Shown piece after piece: positions 7,166 through 27,122 of a DNA stretch of 27,122 nt (the stretch's first letter is position 1; each line of letters starts with the position of its first letter). Source of the DNA: a virus. Below the pieces are notes generated by a model that worked only from the letters and a program-made list of their open reading frames with translations, ran no database searches and was not told the origin of the DNA. The position numbers and the translations under genes are program-made. The DNA is taken from positions 1-27,122 of the IMG/VR virus record IMGVR_UViG_3300029858_000001. One strand, given 5' to 3'.

Positions 7166-7236
7166 TTGAAATTTTTAAAATAAAATAATATAATATATAC
7201 ATAAAATAAAGAAAAAATAAAAGGAGTTATTAAATT

Positions 7237-7632: not shown

Positions 7633-7639
7633 TACATGA

Positions 7640-8627: not shown

Positions 8628-8681
8628 TTATTTAATAAAATTATTATATAATATTTATATAATAATAGAAGGGAATAAGAA

Positions 8682-9680
8682 ATGGGTAAAAAAGTTTTAG
8701 TTCCTGAATTTACTGAAAATTGTAGGGGGCTTTTGGAAGGACTATTCAAGATTAGTGAAGTAGGTCTTTTGAAAGCTCTCGGTGATTTTGTATCTAATAA
8801 ATATTCTAATGTAGAAATTACAGAAGATTATGTATATGCTGAAGGCAATATTCCTGTTATGCTTATTGCACATGTAGATACTGTATTTAGACAACCAATT
8901 CGTCAATTTACTTATAATGAGAAAAGAGCTGTTTATAAAGGCAAGGAAGGTCTTGGAGCAGACGATAGAGCAGGTGTTTTTGCGATTATTCAGATTTTGC
9001 GTAAAAAGTATAGACCTTATGTTCTTTTTACAACAGATGAAGAAATGGGTGGCTACGGGGCACATATATTTGTTGAAGCACATCCAACAGCTCCAAATAT
9101 TAAGTATATGATTGAACTTGATAGAGCTGGTGAAAGAGATTGCGTCTTCTATGAGTGTGAGAATTTTACATTCATGGATTATGTTGAAAGTTTTGGTTTT
9201 AAGCAAGCGATTGGGTCATTTACAGATATTAGTATTATTATGCCTGAATGGGAAGTCGCTGGAGTAAATTTATCAGTTGGTTATCATCATGAACATACTC
9301 AGAATGAAGATTTACATATTAGAACATTGTATAATACAATTAGTAAAGTATGTAAAATGCTTGATGATATTGAAAATGCAGATAAATATAAGTTTATCCC
9401 CAGCAAGGAATATCTCCAATGGATTACATTGACTAATAAATATCATATGCCTTATGATTTTGATGATGATAAACTTCTTAATTGTAGTTTTTGTAATCAG
9501 TTGTATTATGAGTGGGAAGATTTTCCTCTTGATATTGATGGAGTAAAAGTTCATGTGTGCCCTGAATGTTTAGCACTTGATCCTAATATTCATCAATGTG
9601 AAAAGTGTTATAATTTATTTTATTCAAATAATATGAAGGAAAGAGTATGTGATAAATGTCGAGTCCCTGTTGTAATTTAA
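8682..9680 (+). CDS. M42/M20-like metallopeptidase-fold protein with a C-terminal CxxC zinc-ribbon array
   Basis: Motifs HVDTV, GADDRAG and TTDEEMGG match the HxD / GxDD(R/K)xG / EE motifs of M42/M20 peptidases. The C-terminus has CSFC, CPEC, CEKC and CDKC. Confidence 0.55.
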   Translation: MGKKVLVPEFTENCRGLLEGLFKISEVGLLKALGDFVSNKYSNVEITEDYVYAEGNIPVMLIAHVDTVFRQPIRQFTYNEKRAVYKGKEGLGADDRAGVFAIIQILRKKYRPYVLFTTDEEMGGYGAHIFVEAHPTAPNIKYMIELDRAGERDCVFYECENFTFMDYVESFGFKQAIGSFTDISIIMPEWEVAGVNLSVGYHHEHTQNEDLHIRTLYNTISKVCKMLDDIENADKYKFIPSKEYLQWITLTNKYHMPYDFDDDKLLNCSFCNQLYYEWEDFPLDIDGVKVHVCPECLALDPNIHQCEKCYNLFYSNNMKERVCDKCRVPVVI

Positions 9681-9760
9681 ATGAAATTAAAGAACAAGTA
9701 AAGAAGGTTATTGCCTATTCATAGGGGCTGGATATTAACCTTTTAAATATTGATAAATTA

Positions 9761-11083
9761 ATGAATGATTGGGAAGAGAATAAATGCAAATTTTATAGTA
9801 GGCTTCCTGGTAATAAATTAATTTATCAAAGCCATACGCCTATTACAATGTCTATTTCAGAAGATGATAAAAAAGCTGAATTAGATTGTTTTATTGACAA
9901 TATTCGTTGGCATTATGGTTTATTTGAATTAAAAGATTTTGTTGAAAATAATAGAAAAGATTTTTATAATAATATTTTAAGCGAAGATTATTCAATGAAT
10001 AATGGGACTGTCATTCCAAAAGGAATGAAAATAATTAAAGCATTTAAATATTTTGTAGAAGATAAGGAAATTCTTACTGAAATACAAGATAAAGCTAGTA
10101 TGCTTATTCAAAATACAAAAATTAGTGGATATTTTTGTATGTCAGTTCATCCATTGGATTATCTTAGTTTAAGTGAAAATACACATAATTGGCGGTCATG
10201 CCATGCTCTTGATGGAGAGTATCGTGCTGGTAATTTATCTTATATGGCAGATAATTGTACAATTATATGTTATATTAAGAGTGAACATGACGCGGTTTTA
10301 CCTAGATTCCCAGAGGATATACCATGGGCAGATAAGAAATGGCGTATGCTTCTTCATGTATCTGATGATAATACTATGGTTATTTCAGGTCGGCATTATC
10401 CTTATGAAAGTAAAGGATTACAAGATTTCGCTCTTGAATTATATGAAACATTTTTCGGGCTAGGATACCGTTTTACTGATTGGTGTCATGAAAAATATAA
10501 TACATTTACAATAAATGATAAAATTTTTTCTAATGAGAGTCGTTTATTACCTACTGGATACGTAATGACCCCAGATATTAAGGTTATTGTTGATCCGAAA
10601 AATCCTTTGCACTATAATGATCCTCTCCATTCTACTGTGTATGACTATTGGTTTAGTATTGCTTATAGTGAACCTTATTGGCATGAAGAAGGTATTCCAC
10701 AAGATAAATTAATTCTTCCAAGAACTCGTACTACTACTAAAGTTAACATAGGACATGGGGTAAAATGCTGTATTTGCGGCAAAAATGATTGTGTTTTAAC
10801 AGATACAATGCTTTGTATTGATTGTGAGCTTGAATATGGTACAGAAGAAACAGAAGATTTTACTTTCTGTAGAGAGTGTGGTAGACGTATTTATATTCCT
10901 GAAGCAATATCATTAGATGATGATGATGGTTATGTATGCCGTAGCTGCGGAGATAATTATTAGATATGTGATAATTGTAATATGTATTATGATAAAAAAG
11001 ATTTAATTTATGATGAAGAAAACAATGCTTATTATTGTGAAGCTTGTTTTGATGAAATTTTATTTGATAGGGAGAATGAATAA
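9761..11083 (+). CDS. paralog of 5522-7165 (HPLDY domain plus zinc-ribbon array), read through TAG at 10961
   Basis: After TAG the frame continues in clearly coding, CxxC-containing sequence to TAA 11081. This overlaps the next start (TAATG). Confidence 0.65.
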
Positions 11084-11391
11084 TGGCAAAAGGTAGTATT
11101 GCTAAAGATGCTGTCGTAGAAAAAATTGCAGAAGCATTTGGTGAAGATTTCCTTGGATCTTATGATAAAAAGTATTATGTGCGAGCTAAAGAAAATGGAC
11201 AATATATTCAGATTGCAATTAGTTTAACTTGTCCGAAGACTCCTGTGGAAAATTTTGGTTCTATGGATTTTGGTAATAATGAACTTAATTTTGAAGATGG
11301 AGCAACAATTCAGCCTGCGAAGAAGGCTACAGAAATTAGTCCAGAGGAAGAAGAAAATTTAAGAGCTTTAATTGAGAAATTAGGATTATAA
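11083..11391 (+). CDS. small acidic hypothetical protein
   Basis: 102-aa ORF. Confidence 0.5.
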   Translation: MAKGSIAKDAVVEKIAEAFGEDFLGSYDKKYYVRAKENGQYIQIAISLTCPKTPVENFGSMDFGNNELNFEDGATIQPAKKATEISPEEEENLRALIEKLGL

Positions 11392-11393
11392 TT

Positions 11394-12005
11394 ATGATTT
11401 TAAGAATAATTTATAATGAAAATGAATCTTATGATTATGATTTAGGAGAATACCATACAGATAAATTTAAACTTTTGACAAGTGTTTATCCAGCTTGTGA
11501 AATTAATATATTATATTTCCATGATATTAATGATACAGAAAATTCTAAATTTGATAAAATTGCAAAAGAAATTCAATCAAAACCTTTTTTATTAATTAAA
11601 GAAGTTCAAATTTTAAATAAAAATACTGTTGTTTTTAAACAAAATAGAATGATAAAAAATATTGTTTATAGAGATATTTTTTATTCTGCTGGTCATAATT
11701 TAATTAAAGAAGAAGCTTTAACATTTAAATTCCAAGAAAATTGTAAAGCTATCATTGATAGAGAAAAAGAACAAATTTTTTGTGATAAAGAAAATTGTAT
11801 GTATTTTAAACAAGGACATTGTTTTAATTATAATACAGACCTTTATCAAAGTGGAGAAGAATTTGTTCCTTGTTATCCTTGTTTTCTTGAATGTGATACT
11901 GGATTTAAATTTTCTGAAATTTATTCATTTTATACAAAGTTACAAAATAAGGCAGAAGATGAGGGACATTTACCTTATCAACCTTATACAATAAGAGATA
12001 ATTGA
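11394..12005 (+). CDS. hypothetical protein (203 aa), Cys-containing
   Basis: ORF immediately after the previous stop. Confidence 0.5.
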   Translation: MILRIIYNENESYDYDLGEYHTDKFKLLTSVYPACEINILYFHDINDTENSKFDKIAKEIQSKPFLLIKEVQILNKNTVVFKQNRMIKNIVYRDIFYSAGHNLIKEEALTFKFQENCKAIIDREKEQIFCDKENCMYFKQGHCFNYNTDLYQSGEEFVPCYPCFLECDTGFKFSEIYSFYTKLQNKAEDEGHLPYQPYTIRDN

Positions 12006-12060
12006 AAAAAATAAAAAAATAATATATAATATATATATAAAATAAAGAAAAAAATAAATA

Positions 12061-12194
12061 AAGACTTTAACAGCAAAAAATGGACAGTAAATCCGTCGCA
12101 AATGCTACGTAGGTTCGAATCCTACCCTCCCCACCATTATATGGCGGAGGTAGGGAAGTGGTTAAACCCAACGGAACCAAACCAAATAAGTCTT
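12061..12194 (+). tRNA. circularly permuted type-II tRNA-like unit. The 3' half (12092-12136: TCCGT anticodon-stem strand, long variable arm, T-arm GTAGG-TTCGAAT-CCTAC, acceptor CCTCCCC-A-CCA) precedes the 5' half (12144-12175: acceptor GCGGAGG, TA, D-arm GGG-AAGTGGTTAAA-CCC, anticodon-stem ACGGA). The unit is flanked by the inverted repeat AAGACTT / AAGTCTT.
   Basis: Acceptor complementarity is 6/7. The anticodon-stem halves are perfectly complementary 5-mers (ACGGA/TCCGT). The T-arm is canonical. A 7-bp long-range terminal helix is present. No anticodon could be assigned. Confidence 0.4.
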
Positions 12195-12453: not shown

Positions 12454-12602
12454 GCTCTCGTAGCTCAATTGGTCAGAGCCGGCGACTTATCCAAGATTAG
12501 TTTAAATGGTAAAATAGTCTATGCGCAAGAAAGATGTGAGTTCAAGCCTAACATCTTGGGCCAAATCGCCAGATGTGGGTTCAAATCCCGACGGGAGCAC
12601 CA
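12454..12602 (+). tRNA. tRNA (Ile-like, anticodon loop CTTAT|AA, UAU) interrupted by a 73-nt tRNA-like insertion (12491-12563) after anticodon position 36
   Basis: Outer acceptor GCTCTCG / CGGGAGC-A-CCA. D-arm GCTC-AATTGGTCA-GAGC. Anticodon-stem GGCGA / TCGCC is split by the insert. The insert has termini CCAAGAT / ATCTTGG, a T-arm GTGAG-TTCAAGC-CTAAC, and its own G-CCA. Confidence 0.5.
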
Positions 12603-12871: not shown

Positions 12872-13795
12872 ATGCCTAAACTTATTGATATTCCGATAGA
12901 AACTAAATTTAATAGATGGACTGTTCTTAAAAGAGATACTACTAAGAAACGAGGATACTGGTTTTGTTAGTGCGATTGTGGTAATCCTGAAATTAGAAGT
13001 ATAAATATTACTACATTAAAAAGTGGACGTTCAAAATCTTGTGGTAAATGTGGATAGTATGATGAAATTGGTAAGACTTATGGACGTTTAAAAGTTCTTG
13101 AAGTTGATTTAGATTATAAAGAGTAGTATAAGACTAAAGTTTCAGGTTATTATTATAAATGTTAGTGCTCTTGTGAAAATAAAACAATTATTACCGTAAG
13201 TGGCATTAATTTAAGAAATGGACATACAAAATCTTGCGGATGCTTAATTAAAGAAGGGTGTAATAAAAAAGATCTAACAGGTCAAGTTTTTGGGTTTTTA
13301 AAAGTTTTATATCCGACTGAATAGAGGGTATCTTCTTATATCATTTGGCATTGTCGTTGTTTAAATTGTAATAATGAATGTGATGTTTCATCCAGAAATT
13401 TAATTGAAGGAAGAACTAGCTCTTGTGGATGTTTGCGTTCAGTTGGAGAAGCAAATATAAAAAAAATATTGCAAAATAATTAGATAGATTTTTCTTAGGA
13501 AAAAAATTTTTCAGATTTAATTAATCCAGATACTACATATTTATTACGTTATGATTTTTATTTACCTCAATTTAATAGGCTTATAGAATTTGATGGAGAG
13601 TAGCATTTTAAATATAAAAAAAATAATTCTACTTGGAACAATGAAGAAAATTATTTAAAAACAGTGCATAATGATAAAATAAAAAATGATTATGCTAAAT
13701 AGCACAATATTCCATTAGTTCGTATTCCTTACTGGGAACGTGATAATATTACTCTTGATATGTTATTAGGAGATTAGTATTTAATTAACAAATAA
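12872..13795 (+). CDS. free-standing homing-endonuclease-like protein: three tandem Cys4 zinc-finger repeats (W-C-x-C-x-C-G-N ... S-C-G-C) plus a C-terminal Vsr/PD-(D/E)XK-like nuclease domain (YRYDFYLPQFNRLIEFDGEQHF). Contains 10 in-frame TAG sense codons.
   Basis: Hand translation gives a single frame from ATG 12872 to TAA 13793. The only interruptions are TAG. The repeats WFC(TAG)CDCGNPE, YKC(TAG)CSCENK and WHCRCLNCNNE are each followed by SCG(K)C. Confidence 0.65.
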
Positions 13796-14195: not shown

Positions 14196-14271
14196 GCCGG
14201 TGTAGCCGAATGGCATAGGCGAATGATTTAGGATCATTAATCTGAAGGTTCGAGTCCTTTCACCGGTACCA
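14196..14271 (+). tRNA. tRNA with anticodon UAG (decodes CUN Leu codons) but a type-I (short variable arm) body
   Basis: Acceptor GCCGGTG / CACCGGT-A-CCA. Anticodon-stem AATGA / TCATT. Loop TTTAGGA. T-arm GAAGG-TTCGAGT-CCTTT. Confidence 0.65.
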
Positions 14272-14795: not shown

Positions 14796-14972
14796 ATGAA
14801 ATTTCAATTAAGGTATTTTCATTGTCCTATTTGTCATTTACAAATGACGGCTCCTAAAACCAAGAATTTCAAAAAATCTTCTTATAAAGGGAAAAAACAT
14901 CGAAAAATAATGTATTGCATTAATTGTAAAAAAGAACAAAATTTTATTTTAGATGAAATTTCTATTGTATAA
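14796..14972 (+). CDS. small zinc-ribbon protein (58 aa; CPIC...CINC)
   Basis: ATG with RBS AAAGGAG. It is not in the ORF track because it is under 60 aa. Hand-translated MKFQLRYFHCPICHLQM...CINCKKEQNFILDEISIV. Confidence 0.45.
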   Translation: MKFQLRYFHCPICHLQMTAPKTKNFKKSSYKGKKHRKIMYCINCKKEQNFILDEISIV

Positions 14973-15011
14973 ATGATGGTGTGGCCTAGCGGTAAGGCAC
15001 CTGCCTTTGAT

Positions 15012-15745
15012 TTAGTAGCATAAGTAATGCAATTTCGAACTGGGTCAAAGAAGGTTAAGAGAATTAATTTAGGAATTAAATAACAGTGAAAGGAGCTGTT
15101 ATTTATGGCTAAAACTAATTCAGAAAATGTATGTAATTTTGTTAGAAATAGAAAAGCTAATTTAATTTCTTTATTTCATAGTAAATGTTGTATTTGTGGT
15201 TTCGATAAATTTCAAGAAGCTTTAGAATTTCATCATATAAATCCTAAAGAAAAAGAAATTTCTCTATCAGCTAATACAATGGTGTCATTAGAACGTCAAA
15301 TCAATGAGGCTAAAAAATGTATTTTAGTTTGTTCTAATTGCCATAAGGGAATACATGCTGGATATTATCAAATTCCTTCTAATTATTAGGATTTATTTGA
15401 TAATGAATAGGCAGAATATTTATTATAGATGAATAAAGAAATTAAAGAAGGTAAAAAACATTATTGCAAACAATGTGGTAAATTATTAAATTCTAATACA
15501 ACTTATTGTTTAGATTGTAGTCATATTATTTAGCGTAAAACAGAAAGACCAGATAGAGAAACTTTAAAGTAGTTAATTCGTAATTAGTCTTTCGTAGCAA
15601 TAGGTAAATAGTATGGAGTAAGTGATAATGCTATTCGCAAATGGTGTGTTTCTATGAATTTACCTACTAAAAAAACAGAAATTAACCTTTATAATGACGT
15701 CTAGTGGGAATAGATATAAGTTCAAATCTTGTTTAAATCACCATA
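15012..15745 (+). mobile_element. intervening sequence (intron-like) inside the tRNA-Gln anticodon loop, carrying a homing endonuclease gene
   Basis: It lies between the exon halves above. It contains ORF 15105-15719. A hairpin AACAG-TGAAAGGAGC-CTGTT presents the SD. Confidence 0.6.
15105..15719 (+). CDS. HNH homing endonuclease (N-terminal HNH: CCICGF...HHINPKE...CSNCH; C-terminal HTH: LIRN(Q)SFVAIGK(Q)YGVSDNAIRKWC) with 7 in-frame TAG sense codons
   Basis: The standard-code ORF is 15105-15389. With TAG read as sense the frame continues to TAA 15717. The frame was verified codon by codon. Confidence 0.7.
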
Positions 15746-15784
15746 AGCAGGGTACCGAGGGTTCAAATCCCTCCACCATCACCA

Positions 15785-16801: not shown

Positions 16802-16899
16802 TTAAGTGTGATATATTCCAAACACGTAGGGTGGTAAGCACACGGGTTTTCTAGAAGCCTTCCCTATGAATATGGGAGACTAGCCTAGTGGTTCAGGCA

Positions 16900-17373
16900 G
16901 CGGACTGTTTCTTCTGACTTACAATGTTGTAGAATTATGTTAAATTCAAAACAAATTGGTAATATCACAGAAATGGAATCAATGCTTGCTTTTTTAAAGT
17001 TAGGTTATAATGTTCTTACTCCTTATGGAGATTGTGAGCGTTATGACTTCGTAGCTGATGTGAATGGAAATTTTTATAAAATTCAATGTAAAACTTCTCA
17101 TGCTTTTGGTGAGAATGAAGGTATTGAATTTAGTTGCAGAAGTTCTCATCGAGCCGAAGGAAAATGTATTAACGAACGATATACAGCAGATGATGTAGAT
17201 TTTTTTGCTACAACATTTAATGGGAAATGTTATTTAGTTCCTTTTAATGAATGTGGTGGCAGTAAAAAATTAAGATTTGTTAATCCAAAAAATGGACAAA
17301 TTCAACGAGTATCATTTGCTGAAAATTATGAATTAGAGAAGGTGTTAATGACATTGTAACTGATGTAAGAAGC
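16900..17373 (+). mobile_element. intervening sequence in the tRNA-Asn anticodon loop carrying a PD-(D/E)XK homing endonuclease gene
   Basis: Bounded by the exon halves above. ORF 16937-17359 occupies nearly all of it. Confidence 0.55.
16937..17359 (+). CDS. PD-(D/E)XK homing endonuclease, I-Ssp6803I-like (known from a cyanobacterial tRNA-fMet intron)
   Basis: Motif ERYDFVADVNGNFYKIQCK fits D...(D/E)xK. The size is 140 aa. It lies inside a tRNA anticodon loop. It has no TAG codons. Confidence 0.55.
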   Translation: MLNSKQIGNITEMESMLAFLKLGYNVLTPYGDCERYDFVADVNGNFYKIQCKTSHAFGENEGIEFSCRSSHRAEGKCINERYTADDVDFFATTFNGKCYLVPFNECGGSKKLRFVNPKNGQIQRVSFAENYELEKVLMTL

Positions 17374-17519
17374 AATCCGCCAAGCAAGGTTCAATTCCTT
17401 GGTTTCCCGCCACCGCACTCGCGGAAAACATACAACTCAACTGGTGCATAGAACTGGATGGAGCGTTCTATTAGTCTGATGCCTGCATTAGATTAAGTTT
17501 TATAACCATCATACTTGGG

Positions 17520-17590
17520 GACATAGTTTATGGTAGGAAAACGTTGAATTTAATTCAAAGTCGAGGGTTCGAATCCCACTCCCGCAACCA
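17520..17590 (+). tRNA. tRNA-like 3' element (GAGGG-TTCGAAT-CCCAC ... TCCCGCA-A-CCA) with an unresolved 5' partner. Possibly another split or degenerate tRNA.
   Basis: Canonical T-loop and a CCA end. No complementary acceptor 5' strand was found within 150 nt. Confidence 0.25.
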
Positions 17591-17713
17591 TATGAAAAGC
17601 CCATACAGCAACTTTTAATAGGATAAATAAGAAATTCTGCAAAAATTTTTTAGAGTTGGTTCAAATCCAGCAAATGATTTTAGGGCTTTGTTAAAATTAT
17701 TAAGGAGAAAATA

Positions 17714-18157: not shown

Positions 18158-18245
18158 GTAGGAGTGCCAGAGTGGTCGATTGGGTTAGTCTCCAAAACTA
18201 ATTGTAGCTACACATCCAGGGTTCGAATCCCTTGCTCCTATGCCA
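18158..18245 (+). tRNA. tRNA with anticodon CCA (Trp-decoding) but a type-II body (3-bp D-stem with 11-nt D-loop, 14-nt variable arm TTGTAGCTACACAT)
   Basis: Acceptor GTAGGAG / CTCCTAT-G-CCA. Anticodon-stem TTAGT / ACTAA is perfect. Loop CTCCAAA. Confidence 0.5.
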
Positions 18246-18680: not shown

Positions 18681-18783
18681 CTTTTCTTCAAAATTTATAG
18701 TATAATATAAATGGTTAAAAGAGATTAAATGTATTAAGAAATATTTTATTATTATTAGAAATATTTTAAGGAGGATTCTTAAT

Positions 18784-19155
18784 ATGGTTTATGAAATTAC
18801 TTGTACTGATCCTAATGGAGAGAAAAAAACTTTAATTGTTTAGGATACAGACAACATTAAAATAAGTATAGAATATCAAGAAAGTGGAAATCTTCTTACT
18901 TTCGCAAATGATTTTAATCAATAGGCTGAAAAAAGTTCTGATATGGATAATCTTTTTAATTTTCTATCAAAAAAAGATACAGATTTTAGTATCAGCGTTA
19001 ATGTAAATGAAAATAAATTTAGTTATGCTACTTTTAAGTCAATAACTAATATTAAATATACTATTAGTTTAAATCCAACAGAAAATAAAAGACCAGATAC
19101 TAAATTATTTACAGCTATGGTTCAAGCTGAATTTAAAAAAGGAGATGAAGTATAA
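18784..19155 (+). CDS. small protein (123 aa, 2 TAG sense codons), tandem paralog of the next gene
   Basis: RBS AAGGAGG. Frame is continuous with track ORF 18943-19155. Shared motif DFSISVNVNENKFSYATFKSITN. Confidence 0.55.
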
Positions 19156-19541
19156 TGTTGATTTATGATATATCTTTTATAGATAGCAATTCTGAAAAAC
19201 ATAGTATTCCATTCCCAATACCAAATACTAATATTGAAATTTCCTATGGTACAGATCAAAAACGTTATTTAACTTTAACTTATAAATATAATACTACAGA
19301 AGAAAGAGAAGAATACCTAAGCAAAATATAGCAATTTAATTTAAGTTCTAATTCTGATTTTACTATTTCTATTTTAGATGATGATAATTCAGTTTCTTCT
19401 TTTATTTTTACTACTTTTAAAAATTTAAGAGAAGAAGAAGTTCAAAATACTATAAATAAAGATTATATCTATCGAGCTATAGATGATAGTCCTAAATTTG
19501 AATTACATTTATTCTGTCAATTAGGTGAAAATAATGAGTAA
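19155..19541 (+). CDS. small protein (128 aa, 1 TAG), paralog of 18784-19155
   Basis: The start overlaps the previous stop (TAATG). Motif DFTISILDDDNSVSSFIFTTFKN. Confidence 0.5.
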
Positions 19542-20124
19542 AATTTTATGGGATGATTTAAAAACTTTATATACTGAATTAAATACTCAAAGATAGAAAT
19601 TTTAGTTAGATACTGTTAGTGTCCCATCCAATTAGAATAAACAAACTAAAACCAGTGATATATCTACTTTAAAAGATGCTATTCAATCTATGAGTTCTCA
19701 TGCTTAGATTGGGGACAATGCTTCTACTACCTCAGTAATTGTTCCTGATTAGTATAGCCAAATGCGTCAAACCCCAATTACTCAAATGCGAACAGTAATT
19801 AATCGTATTTCTTAGTTAGCATTTAACGCTGGTAATTTTAGTAATCATAATGGTACTAATTTCGGTGGATTCCATAGTAGCCATTTTGGTGGCTTCGATG
19901 GCTTTAATTTTAGTGGATTCCATAGCGGTAATTTTACTAATGTTAATAACAGCAATAATGCTAATGTGAATAATAGTAATAATGCCGGTTTTTATAATAG
20001 TAATAATACTGGTAATAATATTCCATGTTTTAATGGTAATTATAATTTTAACATTAGTAGCCATAGATGTACCAGTTTTAGCTGTCCTAGCTTCAGATGT
20101 TTTAACTGTAGATTTAATCCGTAA
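19534..20124 (+). CDS. Gln(TAG)-rich protein with a low-complexity N/G/F/H/S repeat region (GGFHSSHFGGFDGFNFSGFHSG) and a Cys-rich C-terminus (CFNGNYNFNISSHRCTSFSCPSFRCFNCRFNP). Candidate precursor or substrate of the downstream radical-SAM enzymes.
   Basis: Hand translation with 8 TAG read as sense. It ends at TAA 20122. It lies immediately upstream of rSAM gene 1. Confidence 0.5.
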
Positions 20125-20159
20125 AATAATAATAATAATAACTAAGAAAGGTTATATTA

Positions 20160-21638
20160 ATGGATAAAATTATAAATTGTTTAGATAAAATAAATTGGAA
20201 AACTGTTATAATAGTTTCTGGAGGATGTAATTTAAATTGTAAGTACTGTTTAGTTAATAAATCTAAATCAGGAACTAACTATCCTAATTTTTTAAAAGAT
20301 ACTAATGCTGCGATAGCTAATGGTTCTTACTTAGATACTTTTAAAAAAGCATTTTAGAAATATAATCAAAGTCCTCGCCAAGTTGAAATTATGGAATTAT
20401 GGGGCAATGAACCAACTTTAATGCTTAAAGATTTAAATAAAGTTTGGAAAGACTGGTTAGAAGTTTTTTCTGGATTAAAAGGAATGACTTTTTCAACAAA
20501 CGGAATTGATTGTACTGATGATATATTTAATTTTATTTTAGAAATAGATAAGTATATCGACCATGAAATAGAAATAAGTATTTAGTATTCTTATGATGGC
20601 TTTCAAGGTGAAATAAATGAAAGACAACATAACAAAGAGAAGAAAGATACAGAATAGGATAGCATAGTTATTAATAATTTAATTAATTTAATAACAAAAC
20701 TTAACAGTGTAAAATTACATAATGTTAAAATAGATTTTATTCTTCATGCTGTACTATCTATGTTTATTGTAGATAATTTTAATACAACTGAAGATATTAG
20801 TAAATTTGTTGAACAATATATGGATACACTATATAGAATTAATCAATCTATTATCAACCAAAGAATTATATTCCGTGGAGGAGTATTTTTACATGAAAAT
20901 GCTCATGATTGGACCAGCGATGATGGAATTAATTATTGTAGCTTTATGAGAAAGTTCCAAAATATTTTAAGTGCTAAGAAACATAATTTTAAAAATGAAG
21001 GCGTCCAATATAGACATATTTTTAAAGAAGTTTTTGGAACTTTAGAAGAGGATATAATTAGTTTATGTTATAAAACTAATTGTCGTTCAATTGATACATT
21101 AATAGATAATTTTATAACTAATAAAGATTTACCAATTAATAGTTATTGTAGTTCTTTTGATGGTGTTTTACGAATAGATTATCAAGGAAATCTTTTAGAC
21201 TGCCATGCTTCTTTATATGACCCTTACCTAGAAAAGGATAAATTAACTAATACAATTTTAGATCAGGGTCGATGGATGTGTAAAGAACATGGACGGTATC
21301 TTAATATTCTAAAAAATGATAAAGAAGAAATTGAAAAATTACTTGATTTTTATCTTACTGCTCGTGACCCAACGGTAACTTTATTTGAAACATAGCAAAT
21401 GATAAATAAAATATATTTATTAGCTTTATGTGGATAGGCTAATGAATCTTATCTATATGATTTTAATAAATTAAAACGTCATGCTTTTATACTGGCTAAA
21501 GCATATCAATGCTATAATATATTAAAATGCCGGAATGGCTCTATTTTTGTTAGAGGAAATGAAGAAATAAGATTTTTCTGTAATGGTATTTTAGATATAG
21601 CTGAAGAAAATATAAATAGAGAAATTGGAGATTTTTAA
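20160..21638 (+). CDS. radical SAM enzyme with a SPASM/twitch domain (CNLNCKYC is CxxxCxxC; GNEPTL is the GGEP-like motif; CSSFDGVLRIDYQGNLLDC is Cx12Gx4C). It includes 4-5 TAG sense codons. Track fragments 20160-20357, 20391-20585 and 20760-21395 are one frame.
   Basis: All fragments are in frame 0 and separated only by TAG (20355, 20583, 20655). After TAG 21393 the same frame continues through a Cys-rich tail (ALCGQ, YQCYNILKCRNG, FFCNG) to TAA 21636. The minimal end is 21395. Confidence 0.65.
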
Positions 21639-21640
21639 TA

Positions 21641-23065
21641 ATGACTTATAAAGAACAAGAAAGAGATTTATTAAAATTATATTTAGATACAGCTTTATTA
21701 CCATATCCCACTAATTCAAATTCTGATGGAGACTATTTTTTAAATGAAAATGGATTTGAATTAATAGTACGTCCTTAGTGTAATTAGCATTGTTCATATT
21801 GCTATATAGCTAATTATGGCAAAGAACTTTATCCAACAGTGTTAAATAAAAAGGATACTTTAAAAAATATTGATCTTGTTTTAGATTATGTTTATAATAT
21901 AAGAAAAAATTTCTGTTATAATATAGCTCTGTTTGCCGGAGATATGTTTAATGATGAAATTTTCTTTGATATTGTTGATCTGCTTGAAAAATATCTAAAT
22001 CCTATTTTAATAAAACATCCTGAATATTTTAATAAACAGGGTTTAATTCAATGTCCTTGTAATTTACGATGGGTATATGAAAAACCTCAATTAGTATCAA
22101 GATTTAGAAAAATATATTATCATTTTAAAAATGTTTATAATATATATATGAGTTTTTCTTGGAGTACTGATGGATTACCAGCAATAAAAAATAGAGAAAA
22201 AATTGATATAGATCAACATTATTTTGATACTATTTTTTAGTTTACTAAAGAATTTGGTTTCGGATACCATCCTATGATTAGTGCCGAAAATATTGATGTT
22301 TGGTGTGAAAATATTGATTGGTGGTATGACATGTATAAGAAATTTGATTTAGCTGCTCCTAATGGTTATTATCAACCTTATATGCTTGAAGTACGTAATG
22401 GTAATTGGACTCCAGAAACTATTGAATTACATAATAAATTTCTTGAACATTTTATGAAAAAAAGATTTGAATTATGTGATAGTGATAAAACTAAATTTGT
22501 ACATCATTTATTAATTGGGACTGATGAAGATGGAAATTTACCATTCCCTCAAGGATGTGATCCATTAGATTTAAAATCCAGTAGCTCAACAAGTAGTAAT
22601 TTTGATAAAATGAGCTGTGGTGCTTAGAGTATGATTCATTTTAATTGTACTAATCTATCTTTAGTATTTTGTCATAGAATGTCTTATCCTCTTTACACTG
22701 GTGGGTATTTTAAAACAGATGAAGAGAAAAATCATATTATTGATATAGATCCCTATAATGTAAGTGCATATATAACTATGAAAACGGCAAAAACAACTAC
22801 TTTCCCTTTGTGCGCAAAATGCAAATACTTTAGTCTTTGCAAGTTAGGATGTCTTGGGGCTTAGACTGAAGATAGTGGAGAACCTTATATGCCAATTAAA
22901 GCTGTTTGTGCTTTTAATAAAGTTAAATATGAAAAATTGACTGATTTATATTATCAATATGGTGTTTATGATATAGGAGTTAAAAAAGGTTGGCTCACAA
23001 AAGATAAATCTTGGTTAACATTTATCTACAATCAAGGAATAGAAAGAGGGTATATAAATGAATAA
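21641..23065 (+). CDS. second radical SAM / SPASM enzyme (P(Q)CN(Q)HCSYC is CxxxCxxC with two TAG inside the motif; C-terminal CAKCKYFSLCKLGC is CxxCx5Cx3C). Track fragments 21839, 22274 and 22631 are one frame with 5 TAG.
   Basis: Frame 2 is continuous from ATG 21641 (RBS GGAGAT) to TAA 23063. The interruptions at 21776, 21785, 22238, 22625 and 22862 are all TAG. Confidence 0.65.
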
Positions 23066-23423
23066 AAAAGTTAAATTTTTAATTGCCTTAAATTCTATTA
23101 AAGAAAACTTTGATATTAATAATATAAATGATTATCAAGAATTAATTGATATTTGCAGTCGAATAAATTATGCAAAAGAAAAGGATGAAGATATTCTTTC
23201 ATTCGTTAAAGAAATTATATAGTTAATTGCATTAAAATAGATAGACTCAAAAGAATGTGATTCTTGTTGGCAAGAATATATACCTGATATTCCAATTGAC
23301 AATCAACCTGAAAATGATGATTTTTATAGTCATAGTAATACTTTTTAGAATTTATTTAAATTGGATATATTCAATCCTTTAAATCCAGATTATAAGTATA
23401 CAAATATTTTAAAATTTAATTAA
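23058..23423 (+). CDS. small hypothetical protein (about 121 aa, 3 TAG)
   Basis: ATG overlaps the previous gene's end. Hand-translated in frame 0 to TAA 23421. Confidence 0.4.
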
Positions 23424-23438
23424 AAAGAGAAAAAAATA

Positions 23439-24296
23439 ATGATTTATTTTACTTTACAAAATTTTTATGAAAATCAAAAATTAAATAATATATTTTTCAT
23501 TGTGCAAGATAAATTTTCTGGCTCTTTTAAAGTTCCTGTTAAATTTATTTATACCGCCGGTTCTTTCCCCTATACCTATTGGAACGGCGGTATAAATAAC
23601 AACTTTGGTATTGGCGATAATACTTATGATACAATTATAGAATATTCTAATAATAACCTATTGCCTTTAAGAATTAATTGTAGTAATATTAATTTAAATC
23701 CTAATGATTTTGATGATACTATTATGAATGTAATTTTAAATTTATTAAATAATAGTAGCAATGCTATTGAATTATCAAATTTGGAATTATATGAATATCT
23801 ATATAAAAAGTATCCTAACTTTCATTATATTTTATCGAATAATTTTAACTTAATTAACTCACTAACTCCAGAATTAATTAATAAATTGAATGAAATTTGT
23901 GATTTTTATTTAATTCAAATTCCATTAAATAAAATTAAAGATTTAAATTTCTTAAAAGCAATACAAAATAAAAGGAACATTGAGTTACCTGTTGGAGATA
24001 TTTGTAATTGTACAAGTTTAGACGATTGTAATATTAAAGAACAAATAGCTCAATATAACTATTCAGATTCTTTTACTAAAATAAATTGTTCTAAATGTTC
24101 AGGACTTAATTATAGTTTATCTATAGAAGATATTCAGAATAATTATGTTCCTTTAGGATTTCATAATTTTATTTTACCAGATTATTGTAATTCAAAAAAT
24201 AATAATATAATTAAATTTTTTATTGATTTTTTTATTAAAGATTCTGACAAATTATTGATTTATGAATTTATAGAGGAGCAAATGTATTATGGTTAA
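23439..24296 (+). CDS. U32-family-like protein A (paralog of the next gene; Cys-rich, CNCTSLDDC, CSKCSG)
   Basis: Shares NSLTPE, PLGF(H/E) and YP(N/M)(F/Y)(H/K)Y motifs with 24289-25158. No TAG. Confidence 0.45.
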   Translation: MIYFTLQNFYENQKLNNIFFIVQDKFSGSFKVPVKFIYTAGSFPYTYWNGGINNNFGIGDNTYDTIIEYSNNNLLPLRINCSNINLNPNDFDDTIMNVILNLLNNSSNAIELSNLELYEYLYKKYPNFHYILSNNFNLINSLTPELINKLNEICDFYLIQIPLNKIKDLNFLKAIQNKRNIELPVGDICNCTSLDDCNIKEQIAQYNYSDSFTKINCSKCSGLNYSLSIEDIQNNYVPLGFHNFILPDYCNSKNNNIIKFFIDFFIKDSDKLLIYEFIEEQMYYG

Positions 24297-25158
24297 GTAT
24301 GCAATTCCAGGAATGTATGAATTAGCAAATTTAAATTTTAAACTCTTAGATTTAAAATCTGCTAATCCTGAATATTTTTACGATGACGTAGAAATTGAAA
24401 TTAGTTATGGTAATCCTCAATTTTGTATCTGGGATGGAGGAAGAGTATTTTCTTTTTATAAACAAGCTTCTATTGATATTATAAAAAATATAATTGATAC
24501 ATATAATAATAAATATCATATCCCTATTAGATATGTATTTACAAATAATCAATTAACTCCAAAAGAATATAAAAATAGATTTTGTAATTTATTAATGGAA
24601 GCAGGAAGTAACGGTCCTAATGAAGTAGTAGTCGCTGATGATGATTTTATGCTTTATCTTAAAGAACAATATCCTATGTATAAATATGTATCATCGACTA
24701 CTAAAGTTATTACTGATCCAGAAGAGGCAAAAAAAGAAATTGATAAAAAAGATTATAAACTTACCTGTTTACATTATGATTTAAATTTCAATTTTAAATT
24801 TTTGAATTCTTTAACACCAGAAGAGCGAGCAAAAACAGAGTTTTTAATTAATCCAATCTGTCCTGCTGGTTGTCAATTCAGAAAAGAACATTATAAACTG
24901 AACAGTCAAATGGTTTTAAATTATGGTAAATCTTACACTACTCCTTGGTGCGGAATTACTAAAAATAATTTCTATCCATCTGTTCGTAAAAATCATATGA
25001 GTTATGAACTAATTAAAGAAAAATATGCTCCTTTAGGTTTTGAGCATTATAAAATTGAAGGACGTACTTGGGAAGAGTTAGAGGCAGCTTTAACTTATTG
25101 CGAGTATATGATAAAACCAGAATATCAAAATTACGTACTACCTTATTTAATGGGCTGA
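24289..25158 (+). CDS. peptidase-U32-family protein B (RlhA/UbiU/UbiV/TrhP superfamily)
   Basis: The C-terminal motif GFEHYKIEGRT matches the conserved U32 KIEGR segment (compare E. coli YhbU HSLKIEGRTKS). Cys residues CPAGC and WCG may bind an Fe-S cluster. No TAG. Confidence 0.5.
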   Translation: MVKYAIPGMYELANLNFKLLDLKSANPEYFYDDVEIEISYGNPQFCIWDGGRVFSFYKQASIDIIKNIIDTYNNKYHIPIRYVFTNNQLTPKEYKNRFCNLLMEAGSNGPNEVVVADDDFMLYLKEQYPMYKYVSSTTKVITDPEEAKKEIDKKDYKLTCLHYDLNFNFKFLNSLTPEERAKTEFLINPICPAGCQFRKEHYKLNSQMVLNYGKSYTTPWCGITKNNFYPSVRKNHMSYELIKEKYAPLGFEHYKIEGRTWEELEAALTYCEYMIKPEYQNYVLPYLMG

Positions 25159-25187
25159 TTAATTTAATCAGTCCATCTTTTTTTTTA
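25155..25187 (+). terminator. probable terminator (palindrome CTGATTAA-T-TTAATCAG followed by a T-run)
   Basis: 8-bp perfect hairpin. The T9 run begins 6 nt downstream. Confidence 0.45.
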
Positions 25188-25338
25188 TATATTTTAAAGA
25201 CAGTAGGTTATGAACTGCTCTAGCCGGCTTGGGATGCTAAAACCGAATGCTTAAATTAAAATTCCATTTAAGAAATTTTCGGTCCAATAGGTATAGAGCA
25301 ACATAAAATAATTTTAAATATGAAAGGAGAAGGACAAT

Positions 25339-25452
25339 ATGAAAATGTTTATTCTTTCATATAAGGGCGGCAAAGACGGCGGCGACATTGACAAAGAAGA
25401 TACTTCTAAGTCAACAGGCGGCTGGGATGGCGGCTCTATAGATGATGATTAA
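25339..25452 (+). CDS. 37-aa Gly/Asp-rich peptide (MKMFILSYKGGKDGGDIDKEDTSKSTGGWDGGSIDDD)
   Basis: RBS AAAGGAGAAGG at good spacing. It lies between the U32 genes and the tail-fiber genes. Confidence 0.35.
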   Translation: MKMFILSYKGGKDGGDIDKEDTSKSTGGWDGGSIDDD

Positions 25453-25469
25453 AGAAAGGAGAACACGAG

Positions 25470-26531
25470 ATGGCTGAAATTATTAAGTTAAGACGTGGTA
25501 AATCAACCAGTTGGTCTAAAAAGAATATAGTTCTTGCAGCTGGTGAAATCGGCGTAGAACTTGATACACATTAGATTAAAGTCGGCGATGGTTCAACACC
25601 TTGGAATAAACTATCTTATGTAGGCGGAACTAAAGTTGTTAATGTTCAAGAATACACTGATAATCCAGCAGTTGTAGATGGCGTGCCTTATCAATCTATT
25701 GATGTAGCATTTATGAAGGCTCCAGCAGGAAGTACAATTCGTCTTAATACCAACTTTGATAACAGCGTTTCTATTGATAAAGCATTGACTATTGAATTAA
25801 ATGGTAATGATATTATCAACAATGAAAAAACTCCAATAGATATCAAAGCAAATGGCGATCTAACTATTAAGGGCCAAGGCACTATTGAATGTAATAAGAA
25901 TGAAAATGCCGCAGTTTTTAATAATGGTAATATTACTATTAATAATGGTAAATTACAACGTACTACTGATGTATCAGGCAATGGCTATTATACTGCTGTT
26001 AATCATGGCATTATGACAATTAATGGTGGCATGTTTATGAGTGGTGGCGAGTTTTCTAGTATGATTGAAAATGGCTATTGGGATTATCACGCTGGTAATG
26101 CTACTAATGGTTATGTTCAAGGTCAAAATGCTGAAATGCCTACATTAACTATTAATGATGGTACATTCGCTGGCGGCTTATATGCTATAAAAAATGATGA
26201 TAATGCTGTTTTAAATATTAATGGCGGCACATTCTATAATACTATTCTTGCTAATGGTAAGTCAATGACTATTACTAATGGATATTTTGAAAATAGTAAA
26301 CCAAGCCAAGGGGAATATAATTTTTATCTTCGTAAATTAAGTGAAGATATAAATCCTCAAAATACATACATTAGTGGCGGTACATTTATTACTGCACAAG
26401 ATAAGAATTTCAAGGTTGAGGGTGACCCTCATATTGAAATTAGTGGTGGTCGTTTTAATAGAGAATTAGATCCTTCTTATTTAGCTCCTGGCTATAGACA
26501 AGTACTTGTCAATGGCTTCTATACTGTCTAG
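25470..26531 (+). CDS. tail fiber / receptor-binding protein with a conserved N-terminal domain and a beta-helix-like NGG repeat body (1 TAG at 25572)
   Basis: The N-terminus IKLRRGKSTSWSKKNIVLAAGEIGVELDTH(TAG)IKVGDGSTPWNKLSYVGG parallels the next gene. It has repeats NGGTFYN and NGGMFMSGG. The frame is continuous into track ORF 25683-26531. Confidence 0.6.
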
Positions 26532-26546
26532 AAGGAGGAATAATCT

Positions 26547-27062
26547 ATGGGTGATATCATCAAGTTCAAAAGAGGTCGATCAACTACATGGCGCGAAAAG
26601 AACTTATTGCTTAAGGACGGCGAGCCTGGATTTGAATTAGACACTTATAAACTGAAAATTGGTGATGGTAAAACTTTATGGAATGATTTACCATATATTG
26701 GTGGCGAAAGTGGTATAATTGATCTTCCTGATAATGTAATGGAATTTTTAGGTACAGTTGATGCACTTCCAGCTACCGCTGAGGATGGAGAAATGTGTAT
26801 TTATAATGGTAAATTATATATTTATGATGGTAAATGGACAACTACAGAAACTTCTTCTTCAACACAAAATTCTTTCAATTCTTTAGTAGATGCAATTAAT
26901 TATATCACTTAGCATAATTGTGTTGGTCAAATTGTATCTATCTTTTAGAATAATAAATGGTTGCCTTATATTGTAGATGTAAATAATAATCTTGTACCTA
27001 TTCAATATGGAGAAGATAGTTATGATATTCTTAATGGTGGCAACGCAAATACTCTTAATTAA
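26547..27062 (+). CDS. second tail-fiber-like protein sharing the same N-terminal domain (2 TAG at 26910, 26946)
   Basis: The N-terminus IKFKRGRSTTWREKNLLLKDGEPGFELDTYKLKIGDGKTLWNDLPYIGG parallels the previous gene. The frame continues after TAG to TAA 27060. Confidence 0.55.
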
Positions 27063-27084
27063 TTTTATAGGAGGAAAATGATTT

Positions 27085-27122
27085 ATGGCTGATAAAATTC
27101 TTAATACTCGTATTCAAGTATT
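27085..27122 (+). CDS. start of next gene (truncated by the window end)
   Basis: AGGAGG lies 10 nt upstream of ATG 27085. Confidence 0.4.
   Translation, partial: MADKILNTRIQV

What the first reader, a model, noticed from the sequence alone, without database searches (positions are those of the whole stretch)
21393..21638. The radical-SAM 1 apparent stop is TAG followed by an in-frame Cys-rich tail
The track ORF ends at TAG 21393-95. The same frame continues for 81 codons containing ALCG, YQCYNILKCRNG and FFCNG before TAA. These extra Cys would complete a second auxiliary Fe-S site expected for a full SPASM domain. If so, amber suppression level would decide between a twitch-like and a full SPASM enzyme, a possible translational switch.
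Basis: partly seen in the sequence, partly recalled or inferred. Interest (0 to 1): 0.55.

Follow-up and report, generated by a model that had tools for sequence, protein, structure and literature searches.

The report
Phage reads TAG as glutamine
The apparent TAG stop is one of five TAG codons that this phage reads as glutamine inside one full-length radical-SAM enzyme gene, a known alternative genetic code of phages and not a gene-specific switch.

Summary
TAG sits at 21393-95 and the frame runs on to TAA at 21636-38. It is not a special stop. The same frame, 20160-21638, holds five in-frame TAGs (codons 66, 142, 166, 412, 426). The neighbouring radical-SAM gene holds five more, two of them inside its CX3CX2C motif.

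Reading TAG as sense raises the window's + strand share in long open frames from 0.58 to 0.85. In three standard-code relatives with full-length orthologues, CAA or CAG stands where the window has TAG at codons 142 and 426; Gln142 is invariant. So TAG most likely encodes Gln, as in code 15, the known recoding of phage late genes.

The 80-codon tail belongs to the enzyme. It is kept in hundreds of relatives, has dN/dS 0.14 and high AlphaFold confidence, and carries invariant Cys451.

The SPASM idea fails. No SPASM HMM hit appears with or without the tail, and there is no CX2CX5CX3C. Only three or four conserved auxiliary Cys are present, which fits a twitch-like domain with one cluster. The canonical SPASM enzyme is the next gene.

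A twitch/SPASM switch at codon 412 is implausible, because unsuppressed ribosomes stop first at codon 66. No CUA tRNA lies in this window.

The parts
20160..21638 (+). Complete radical-SAM gene 1: 492 sense codons with TAG read as Gln, plus a TAA stop
   Evidence: Translation. Full-length homologues of about 470-500 aa. PF04055 scores 32.2 bits against a cut-off of 29.5.
20226..20249 (+). CX3CX2C motif (Cys23, Cys27, Cys30) that binds the radical-SAM [4Fe-4S] cluster
   Evidence: Invariant in 112 family members.
20355..20357 (+). In-frame TAG, codon 66, in a variable column (K/E/D/N/R in relatives)
20583..20585 (+). In-frame TAG, codon 142, at the invariant Gln of the IQYSYDG motif
   Evidence: CAA or CAG in L004, L006, L008, L009, L011 and L012; TAG in L001 and L007. 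Gln is invariant in 112 sequences.
20655..20657 (+). In-frame TAG, codon 166, in a lineage-specific insertion (GAA in L001)
21147..21203 (+). Cys330-X12-Gly343-X4-Cys348, the CX9-15GX4C hairpin motif that opens SPASM and twitch domains
   Evidence: C330 and C348 are invariant and G343 at least 90% conserved. The family profile aligns this stretch to the start of the CteB SPASM domain (5wgg).
21393..21395 (+). The TAG of the finding, codon 412, a sense codon in a variable column
   Evidence: TAG in L001, CAA in L007, CAT/AAT/TCA/GGC in other relatives.
21435..21437 (+). Second TAG inside the 'tail', codon 426, at a Gln conserved at 90% or more among the 20 first-search family members
   Evidence: CAA or CAG in L004, L006, L007, L011 and L012; TAG in L001 and L009. 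Q426 is listed as nearly invariant.
21396..21635 (+). C-terminal helical region (codons 413-492) with invariant Cys451 (21510-12), Gly460-Ser461, and Cys474-Asn475-Gly476 (21579-87)
   Evidence: Conservation. dN/dS is 0.14 against 0.25 upstream. AlphaFold2 block pLDDT is 78-97, mostly 85 or above, and drops to 69 only for the last two residues. Profile matches in relatives run to about position 480 of 487.
21636..21638 (+). TAA, the real stop codon of radical-SAM gene 1
   Evidence: Of 33 code-15 ORFs in the window, 27 end in TAA, 6 in TGA and none in TAG.
21641..23065 (+). Radical-SAM gene 2 (474 codons), the canonical seven-Cys SPASM enzyme of the pair. It has five in-frame TAGs (21776, 21785, 22238, 22625, 22862), including PQCNQHCSYC.
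   Evidence: Weak TIGR04085 hit at residues 339-416.

Best explanation
The window comes from a bacteriophage whose late-gene region uses TAG as a sense codon, most likely glutamine (genetic code 15). The 'stop' at 21393-95 is codon 412 of one 492-codon radical-SAM gene (20160-21638, TAA stop) that contains five such TAGs.

The region downstream of this TAG is an integral part of the enzyme and is always translated with it. It is helical and carries Cys451, one of only three invariant cysteines outside the CX3CX2C motif. Together with Cys330 and Cys348 (a CX12GX4C hairpin), and usually Cys474, it probably binds one auxiliary Fe-S cluster. That would make the enzyme twitch-like and not a full SPASM enzyme.

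Shown here:
- TAG is a sense codon in this window.
- TAG matches Gln codons at conserved positions in relatives.
- The tail is conserved and under purifying selection.
- The SPASM signature is absent.

Inferred, not shown:
- The three or four Cys bind one auxiliary cluster.
- TAG is decoded by a phage suppressor tRNA(CUA) encoded outside this window.
- The suppressor appears during infection and so delays expression of the whole TAG-containing late module, as in the Borges et al. model. Any such gating would act on the whole protein from codon 66 onward, not on a choice between two enzyme forms.
For: (1) The gene has five in-frame TAGs and no in-frame TAA or TGA in 492 codons, P about 4e-17 from composition.

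(2) With TAG as sense, the + strand share of the window in open frames of 100 codons or more rises from 0.58 to 0.85. Reading TGA as sense gives only 0.67. Five related contigs rise in the same way (0.52-0.71 to 0.84-0.93).

(3) None of the 33 code-15 ORFs ends in TAG.

(4) Three relatives (L004, L011, L012) have full-length orthologues with no in-frame TAG. L004's orthologue uses TAG as its own stop. They carry CAG, CAA and CAG at the window's TAG codon 142, and CAA, CAA and CAG at codon 426.

(5) Gln is the residue most enriched opposite TAG columns, 5.4-fold. Gln142 is invariant in 112 family members.

(6) The neighbouring gene has TAG at the nearly invariant Gln of CNQxC and of GCLGAQ. An HNH endonuclease ORF with 10 in-frame TAGs matches PHROG HNH families over nearly its full length.

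(7) Tail evidence:
- dN/dS is 0.14.
- The AlphaFold2 model of the 95%-identical P0001 has pLDDT 87.3 and pTM 0.87, with the tail mostly at 85-97.
- There are 484 cluster representatives at E <= 1e-30, and nearly all of the 150 listed match through profile position about 475-485 of 487.

(8) TAG makes up about 5% of Gln codons in the early-type left part of the window and about 28% in the structural right part. This is the pattern reported for recoded phages (bioRxiv 10.1101/2021.08.26.457843).

(9) A TAG-recoded relative (L008) encodes release factor 2 about 1.4 kb upstream of the same rSAM gene (prfB 445 bits, cut-off 370). RF2 genes were also reported in TAG-recoded phages.

(10) TAG-to-Gln decoding has been shown by mass spectrometry in crAss-like phages (PMC9523058, abstract).
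Against: No tRNA with a CUA anticodon, release factor or aminoacyl-tRNA synthetase was found in these 27 kb. The decoding agent is therefore assumed to lie elsewhere in the genome.

At the finding's own codon 412 the column is variable (Q, H, N, S, G). Its identity as Gln rests on the other TAG positions.

There is no protein-level evidence for this phage.

The one-cluster (twitch-like) assignment rests on conservation counts and fold similarity.
Confidence: 0.92

Rival explanations
1. Gene-specific amber read-through switch. TAG 21393 is a leaky stop. Low suppression gives a short twitch-like enzyme and high suppression gives a longer full-SPASM enzyme.
For: The TAG is followed by an open, Cys-containing frame. 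Timing of suppressor expression is a published hypothesis for recoded phages in general.
Against: - Three TAGs lie upstream in the same gene, at codons 66, 142 and 166. A ribosome that stops at TAG never reaches codon 412.
- The short form would lack invariant Cys451.
- Relatives with no TAG always encode the long form.
- No SPASM HMM or CX2CX5CX3C motif appears even with the tail.
- TAG is a sense codon in many other genes of the window.
Confidence: 0.03
2. A decaying pseudogene. The TAGs are nonsense mutations in a dead radical-SAM gene.
For: Under the standard code the gene is broken into at least four pieces.
Against: - Only TAG interrupts the frame, never TAA or TGA, although both are much commoner off-frame.
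- dN/dS is 0.25 before the TAG and 0.14 after it, against a 68%-identical relative that shares TAGs at codons 142, 412 and 426.
- The same pattern is seen in neighbouring genes and in five related contigs.
Confidence: 0.01
3. TAG is a sense codon but encodes something other than Gln, for example pyrrolysine or another reassignment.
For: Several TAG columns are variable. Glu (2.2-fold) and Asn (1.4-fold) are also over-represented opposite TAG. No decoding tRNA was seen that would fix the identity.
Against: At the two conserved positions, TAG alternates only with CAA or CAG, apart from one TTA in L008 at codon 426. Gln142 is invariant in 112 sequences. No pyl genes or other aaRS were found among the window ORFs scanned. 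Published surveys and mass spectrometry find TAG = Gln in phages.
Confidence: 0.04

Closest known systems
TAG-recoded (genetic code 15) bacteriophages: crAss-like, Lak, Garnet, Agate and others (Borges et al., bioRxiv 10.1101/2021.08.26.457843; Peters et al., PMC9523058)
   Same: - In-frame TAG in conserved genes.
- TAG aligns with Gln.
- Low GC content (31%).
- Recoding is concentrated in structural/late genes and scarce in early-type genes.
- The phage carries a tRNA array.
- RF2 is encoded in a relative.
- Closely related standard-code phages exist.
   Different: This phage matches no GenBank phage at the DNA level, and its rSAM1 protein has no tblastn match there either. Its standard-code relative L012 sits on a Clostridiales contig beside SPbeta-type yon-family genes, so the lineage may differ from the named recoded clades. 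That was not tested phylogenetically. No suppressor tRNA was seen in the 27 kb available.
Twitch-domain radical SAM enzymes, e.g. BtrN and SkfB (definition quoted from PMC5715301)
   Same: A radical-SAM core is followed by a CX9-15GX4C hairpin. There is no CX2CX5CX3C motif. The number of conserved extra Cys (3-4) fits one auxiliary cluster.
SPASM-domain radical SAM maturases: anSME, CteB, SuiB, TigE
   Different: There is no hit to PF13186 or TIGR04085, no CX2CX5CX3C motif and no seven-Cys pattern. Comparison with the SPASM neighbour's profile stops at the end of the core.
Programmed stop-codon read-through that gives two isoforms (e.g. the Qbeta A1 protein or retroviral gag-pol; from my own knowledge)
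   Same: A stop codon is followed by an open, functional reading frame.
   Different: Those systems have one leaky stop and both products function. Here there are five TAGs in the gene, invariant residues are encoded by TAG, and the use of TAG is genome-wide.

Membership tests
Genetic code 15 (TAG = Gln) phage | In-frame TAG codons inside conserved protein-coding genes, with coding density restored when TAG is read as sense | tested here: met
   Five TAGs in rSAM1, five in rSAM2 and ten in an HNH endonuclease gene. The + strand share in long open frames rises from 0.58 to 0.85.
Genetic code 15 (TAG = Gln) phage | TAG aligns with glutamine in homologues that use standard codons | tested here: met
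   CAA or CAG at codons 142 and 426 in the standard-code relatives L004, L011 and L012. Gln is enriched 5.4-fold opposite TAG. Q142 is invariant in 112 sequences.
Genetic code 15 (TAG = Gln) phage | TAG is not used as a terminator | tested here: met
   Of 33 ORFs, 27 end in TAA, 6 in TGA and none in TAG.
Genetic code 15 (TAG = Gln) phage | Phage-encoded suppressor tRNA with anticodon CUA | tested here: inconclusive
   None was found by ARAGORN, Rfam or a custom stem-loop scan of the 27 kb. The window is only part of a genome, and several tRNA genes in it are interrupted. Borges et al. also report recoded phages with no detectable suppressor.
Genetic code 15 (TAG = Gln) phage | Release factor 2 gene (an accessory, not universal, feature) | tested here: inconclusive
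   Absent from the window. Present on the recoded relative L008 next to the same cassette (prfB 445 bits).
Genetic code 15 (TAG = Gln) phage | Peptides with Gln at TAG positions (proteomics) | not testable with these tools
   Needs LC-MS/MS of the source samples.
Radical SAM superfamily (PF04055) | CX3CX2C motif and a Pfam hit above the gathering score | tested here: met
   [not shown]
SPASM domain (PF13186 / TIGR04085) | HMM match to the SPASM model | tested here: not met
   No hit at E <= 1 for the full-length window protein. No hit at E <= 10 for any of 20 family members. The truncated protein is contained in the full-length query, so it cannot hit either.
SPASM domain (PF13186 / TIGR04085) | Seven-Cys motif that includes CX2CX5CX3C and binds two auxiliary clusters (definition in PMC5715301) | tested here: not met
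   Only C330, C348 and C451 are invariant, and C474 is mostly conserved. The tail has CX5C (451/457) only in close relatives and no CX2CX5CX3C. The neighbour rSAM2 does have it: C391-X2-C394-X5-C400-X3-C404.
Twitch domain radical SAM | CX9-15GX4C hairpin after the core, no CX2CX5CX3C, and enough Cys for one auxiliary cluster | tested here: met
   C330-X12-G343-X4-C348. It aligns to the CteB hairpin. There are 3-4 conserved Cys.
Twitch domain radical SAM | Actual binding of one auxiliary Fe-S cluster by these Cys | not testable with these tools
   Needs model coordinates or Fe/S analysis and EPR. The structure tool returns no coordinates.
Programmed read-through isoform switch | A single leaky stop separating two products that are each complete and functional | tested here: not met
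   Three earlier TAGs lie in the same gene, from codon 66. The short product would lack invariant Cys451. TAG-free relatives encode only the long form.

The most novel reading that the evidence does not exclude
The recoding is ordinary. The gene set it sits in may be a new phage-encoded modification system. Window 19534-25158 is conserved in both TAG-recoded and standard-code phages or prophages of Clostridia-type hosts. It contains:
- a ~200 aa protein with a conserved N-terminal half and a hypervariable, repeat-rich G/N/S/F/H/C C-terminus;
- this twitch-like radical-SAM enzyme, from a family of 484 cluster representatives (50% identity) at E <= 1e-30, with no curated model;
- a canonical SPASM radical-SAM enzyme;
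- a pair of U32-like proteins resembling UbiU/UbiV.

In this reading the two radical-SAM enzymes and the U32-like pair cross-link or hydroxylate the repeat protein, which may be a virion or tail component because the cassette lies next to Mtd-type fibre genes. TAG recoding would confine production of the cassette to late infection.
Probability: 0.3. Interest if true: 0.6.

Novelty: new member of a known kind. Interest (0 to 1): 0.22.

Why it matters
For annotation, the window must be translated with TAG = Gln. Under the standard code about a third of its coding sequence is lost, and both radical-SAM genes, the homing endonucleases and other late genes are cut into fragments. The 'track ORF' that prompted this finding is one such fragment.

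For biology, this adds one more uncultivated phage lineage to the known TAG-recoded phages. It has close standard-code relatives that carry the same gene cassette, which gives natural pairs for studying how a code change spreads through late genes.

It does not reveal a new regulatory mechanism at this codon. The more interesting open question is what the conserved cassette of radical-SAM genes, U32-like genes and the repeat protein does.

Tried and rejected
- **DNA similarity to GenBank phages.** Megablast with 19400-25200 and with 1-12000 found nothing, and tblastn with rSAM1 found nothing. A peptidase from the window gave only distant hits of 41% identity or less.
- **Source contig.** Exact-match searches for both window ends in IMG/VR found nothing. 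An exact look-up of a window protein found only an 897-base contig. The rest of the genome, and any suppressor tRNA in it, could not be reached.
- **SPASM HMMs.** No hit for rSAM1. A profile-profile comparison with the SPASM neighbour aligned the core only.
- **Suppressor tRNA.** ARAGORN, Rfam at gathering and E-value thresholds, and a custom scan for stem-loops with a CUA anticodon were run. The only five-pair candidate (16851) has no T-arm and folds no better than shuffled sequence (z = -0.09), so it was rejected.
- **Interrupted tRNA genes.** I read them by eye to see whether splicing could create a CUA anticodon. None of the possible junctions does. This is my own reading and was not computed.
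- **Structure tools.** The afdb50 library was unavailable.
- **Literature.** A search for phage radical-SAM/SPASM cassettes found nothing relevant.

Full report
**The observation**

The sequence shows TAG at 21393-95 in the frame of the radical-SAM gene. That frame stays free of TAA and TGA until TAA at 21636-38. It contains the quoted strings ALCG, YQCYNILKCRNG and FFCNG. From local composition (A 0.38, T 0.36), 81 codons without TAA or TGA are expected by chance about 2 times in 1000.

The same frame also carries three more TAGs upstream, at 20355, 20583 and 20655. The frame opens at ATG 20160, preceded by AAGAAAGG, and codes for MDKIIN...GGCNLNCKYC, the CX3CX2C motif of radical-SAM enzymes. 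The standard-code ORF 20760-21395 is an internal fragment of a 492-codon gene. The chance of 492 codons without TAA or TGA is about 4e-17.

**TAG is a sense codon across the window**

- The next gene (21641-23065) has five in-frame TAGs. Two lie inside its cluster-binding motif, P*CN*HCSYC.
- With TAG as sense, + strand open frames of 100 codons or more grow from 15.8 kb to 23.2 kb. Reading TGA as sense gives 18.2 kb. As a share of the window this is 0.58 to 0.85.
- Of 33 ORFs defined with TAG as sense, 27 end in TAA, 6 in TGA and none in TAG.
- An ORF at 12872-13795 with ten in-frame TAGs matches PHROG HNH and homing-endonuclease families over nearly its whole length once TAG is translated.
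- PHROG and Pfam hits mark the window as phage: nucleotidyltransferase, metallophosphoesterase, peptidase, HNH endonucleases and Mtd_N tail-fibre N-termini. There is also a tRNA array.

**TAG most likely means glutamine**

The large protein database holds 19 full-length homologues of 455-498 aa, plus one 413-aa fragment. I fetched the DNA for eight relatives.

Five of them (L001, L006, L007, L008, L009) reproduce the database protein only if TAG is read as Gln. They carry 3-7 in-frame TAGs each.

Three (L004, L011, L012) have no in-frame TAG, and their called genes translate under the standard code. The L004 orthologue ends in TAG as its stop. L012 is a 429-kb contig of a Clostridiales Family XIII bacterium on which the cassette lies beside SPbeta-type yon-family genes and a terminase. 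The lineage is therefore probably a large temperate phage of Clostridia.

The codon comparison is as follows:

| Window TAG codon | Column conservation | Codons in relatives |
|---|---|---|
| 142 (IQYSYDG) | Gln invariant in 112 members | CAA or CAG in six relatives, TAG in two |
| 426 | Gln at 90% or more among the 20 first-search members | CAA or CAG in five, TAG in two, TTA in one |
| 412 (the finding) | variable | TAG in L001, CAA in L007, CAT/AAT/TCA/GGC elsewhere |

Over all 23 alignment columns where any sequence has TAG, Gln is the most enriched partner at 5.4-fold. Glu follows at 2.2-fold. In the neighbouring gene, TAG falls on the nearly invariant Gln of CNQxC and GCLGAQ.

This is the signature of genetic code 15. 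Borges et al. inferred it in the same way for many phage clades (10.1101/2021.08.26.457843). Peters et al. confirmed it by mass spectrometry for crAss-like phages (PMC9523058, abstract).

**Distribution of TAG**

In the left, early-type part of the window (1-12005), TAG is 5 of 98 Gln codons. In the right, structural part (18.7-27 kb) it is 26 of 93. It is densest in the homing-endonuclease ORFs of the tRNA region. Borges et al. describe the same bias toward late structural and lysis genes. They propose that these genes cannot be translated until phage suppressor functions appear.

One TAG-recoded relative (L008) encodes release factor 2 about 1.4 kb upstream of its rSAM1 orthologue. RF2 genes were reported in TAG-recoded Lak and Agate phages.

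The window itself contains no CUA-anticodon tRNA, release factor or aminoacyl-tRNA synthetase. The decoding agent is therefore inferred, not seen.

**The tail is part of the enzyme**

- It is present in every full-length homologue.
- In an exhaustive profile search, 484 cluster representatives score E <= 1e-30. Nearly all of the 150 listed are 450-510 aa and match through profile position about 475-485 of 487.
- Against the 68%-identical L001 gene, dN/dS is 0.14 in the tail and 0.25 upstream.
- The AlphaFold2 model of the 95%-identical P0001 has mean pLDDT 87.3 and pTM 0.87. Residues 404-488 form helices with block pLDDT mostly 85-97.
- In a 112-sequence alignment at 19-39% identity to the window protein, the invariant residues are C23, C27, C30, W81, G82, E84, N114, Q142, S144, D146, C330, C348 and C451. 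N475 and G476 are at least 90% conserved. C474 is replaced in P0007 (Phe) and L011 (Gly).

One of the three invariant non-motif cysteines, C451, lies beyond the TAG. A product ending at residue 411 would lack it.

**SPASM or twitch?**

By the definition quoted in PMC5715301, a SPASM domain has a seven-Cys motif that includes CX2CX5CX3C and binds two auxiliary clusters. A twitch domain lacks that motif and binds one.

For rSAM1:
- PF13186 and TIGR04085 give no hit at E <= 1 on the full-length protein.
- PF13186 gives no hit at E <= 10 in any of 20 members.
- The family has C330-X12-G343-X4-C348, a CX9-15GX4C hairpin. Its profile aligns this stretch to the opening of the CteB SPASM domain (5wgg; whole-sequence E = 2e-5).
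- Where CteB has CX2CX5CX3C, the family has none.
- A profile-profile comparison with the neighbour's family aligns only the core (residues 7-258).

The neighbour, rSAM2, is the textbook case. It has invariant C326, C344, C391-X2-C394-X5-C400-X3-C404 and C423.

I therefore classify rSAM1 as twitch-like. It probably has one auxiliary cluster bound by C330, C348, C451 and usually C474. This last step is an inference, because the tools return no coordinates.

**Why the switch idea fails**

If TAG terminated, the ribosome would stop at codon 66, long before 412. There is no condition in which a 411-residue 'twitch' form is the main product. Even with partial suppression, a 411-residue product would require read-through of three TAGs followed by termination at the fourth. 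TAG-free relatives make only the long form.

What remains plausible is the general, published idea that TAG codons delay the whole late module until suppression is established. That idea is not specific to this gene, and it is not tested here.

**Rivals**

- A pseudogene is excluded by three points: only TAG interrupts the frame, selection is purifying, and relatives share TAG positions.
- Another amino-acid identity for TAG is unlikely given the CAA/CAG alternation at conserved sites. Only proteomics can close this.

**Context noticed along the way**

The gene sits in a cassette (19534-25158) that is conserved in recoded and standard-code relatives. It contains:
- a ~200 aa protein with a conserved N-terminal half and hypervariable G/N/S/F/H/C-rich repeats;
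- rSAM1 and rSAM2;
- a ~120 aa protein;
- two paralogous ~290 aa proteins (E = 4e-10 between them).

Characterised U32-family members are UbiU/UbiV, TrhP and RlhA. The hydroxylations they are needed for depend on prephenate (PMC10990095, PMC6599085, PMC5727448). Relatives of this phage carry chorismate mutase (L007) or DAHP synthase (L012) beside the cassette. This is a lead, not a result.

**Verdict**

The finding is explained by a known phenomenon, TAG-to-Gln recoding in a phage. The tail is ordinary coding sequence of a twitch-like radical-SAM enzyme. Interest in the finding as posed is low, and the surrounding cassette deserves its own look.

Noticed in passing
window 19534-20124: The ORF just upstream of rSAM1 (196 aa, 6 in-frame TAGs) has a conserved N-terminal ~100 aa. 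Its C-terminus is hypervariable and low-complexity (FGGFHSSHFGGFDGFNFSGFHSGNF...CFNGNYNFNISSHRCTSFSCPSFRCFNCRFNP). Orthologues keep the N-terminus but have quite different repeats, such as GWNGSNA, HRSHRGTNVS and GSNFSGFYGTTASR. It looks like a substrate or precursor for the two radical-SAM enzymes. It has no Pfam hit.
   Followed up: partly
window 21641-23065: The second radical-SAM gene is the canonical seven-Cys SPASM enzyme (CX2CX5CX3C at residues 391-404). Two of its five TAGs lie inside the CX3CX2C motif (PQCNQHCSYC). A standard-code gene caller would miss the motif entirely.
   Followed up: yes
[not shown]
   Followed up: partly
window 14965-15784 and 16869-17413: Two tRNA genes appear to be split by long insertions in or next to the anticodon loop, each holding an endonuclease-type ORF. 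The first insertion holds an HNH ORF at 15105-15719 with 9 in-frame TAGs. The second holds a phrog_5018 ORF at 16937-17359. The 5' and 3' halves pair into normal cloverleaves by eye. The second would be tRNA-Asp(GUC) under group I splice-site rules. No Rfam group I intron hit was seen. ARAGORN mis-called the first as a 95-nt tRNA-Leu(CAA).
   Followed up: partly
window 12454-12599: A tRNA gene (Rfam 42.7 bits) has an insertion of about 75 nt in the anticodon loop, too short for a typical group I intron. The flanks are GGCGA-CU...CCAAA-UCGCC, which would give tRNA-Trp(CCA) if the insertion were removed after U33.
   Followed up: no
window 17517-17584: A weak tRNA-like element (Rfam 32.6 bits, missed by ARAGORN) has a poorly paired acceptor stem. 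Its anticodon loop AUUUAAU would give anticodon UUA, which reads the UAA stop codon and, by wobble, UAG. It is probably degenerate, but it is odd in a stop-recoding phage.
   Followed up: no
window 12060-12135, 17640-17680 and 18158-18245: - Orphan T-arm/acceptor-like pieces (GGTTCGAATCC...CCACCA at 12112, GGTTCAAATCC at 17658) have no detectable 5' half.
- An 84-88 nt tRNA with a CCA (Trp) anticodon has a long extra arm. It scores better against the tRNA-Sec model (39 bits, below the cut-off of 47) than against the general tRNA model.
   Followed up: no
window 14196-14271: The tRNA called Leu(UAG) is only about 73-76 nt long with a short variable loop. Bacterial tRNA-Leu normally has a long extra arm (from my own knowledge), so its amino-acid identity is uncertain. 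The standard-code relative L011 has similar short 'Leu' tRNAs of 77 nt.
   Followed up: no
window 1-12005 versus 18700-27122: TAG use changes sharply across the tRNA array. On the left, GC is about 0.33 and TAG occurs at 1.3 per 1000 codons. On the right, GC is about 0.26 and TAG occurs at 9.9 per 1000 codons. CAG almost disappears on the right (3 against 31).
   Followed up: yes
window 5522-7165 and 9656-11083: Two large paralogous proteins (547 and 475 aa; BLASTP E = 2e-18) share an HPLDY(M/L)(T/S)(M/L)S(D/E)N..W.SC motif and Cys-rich, zinc-ribbon-like C-termini. Neither has a Pfam hit; only the 547-aa one was scanned against PHROGs, also with no hit. The small ORF at 10-579 has similar CxxC repeats.
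   Followed up: no
window 25470-26543 and 26547-27062; L001 6835-8281: Two adjacent genes start with the Mtd_N (major tropism determinant N-terminal) domain typical of tail fibres or receptor-binding proteins. They lie directly downstream of the cassette, in this window and in relatives.
   Followed up: partly
L008 657-1676 and 7903-9639; L011 5155-7134; L012 5003-7072: Relatives carry further enzymes around the same cassette. The TAG-recoded L008 has release factor 2 and a YcaO-domain protein. The standard-code L011 and L012 have a radical-SAM/glycosyltransferase-2 fusion. L006 and L007 have GT8 glycosyltransferases.
   Followed up: partly
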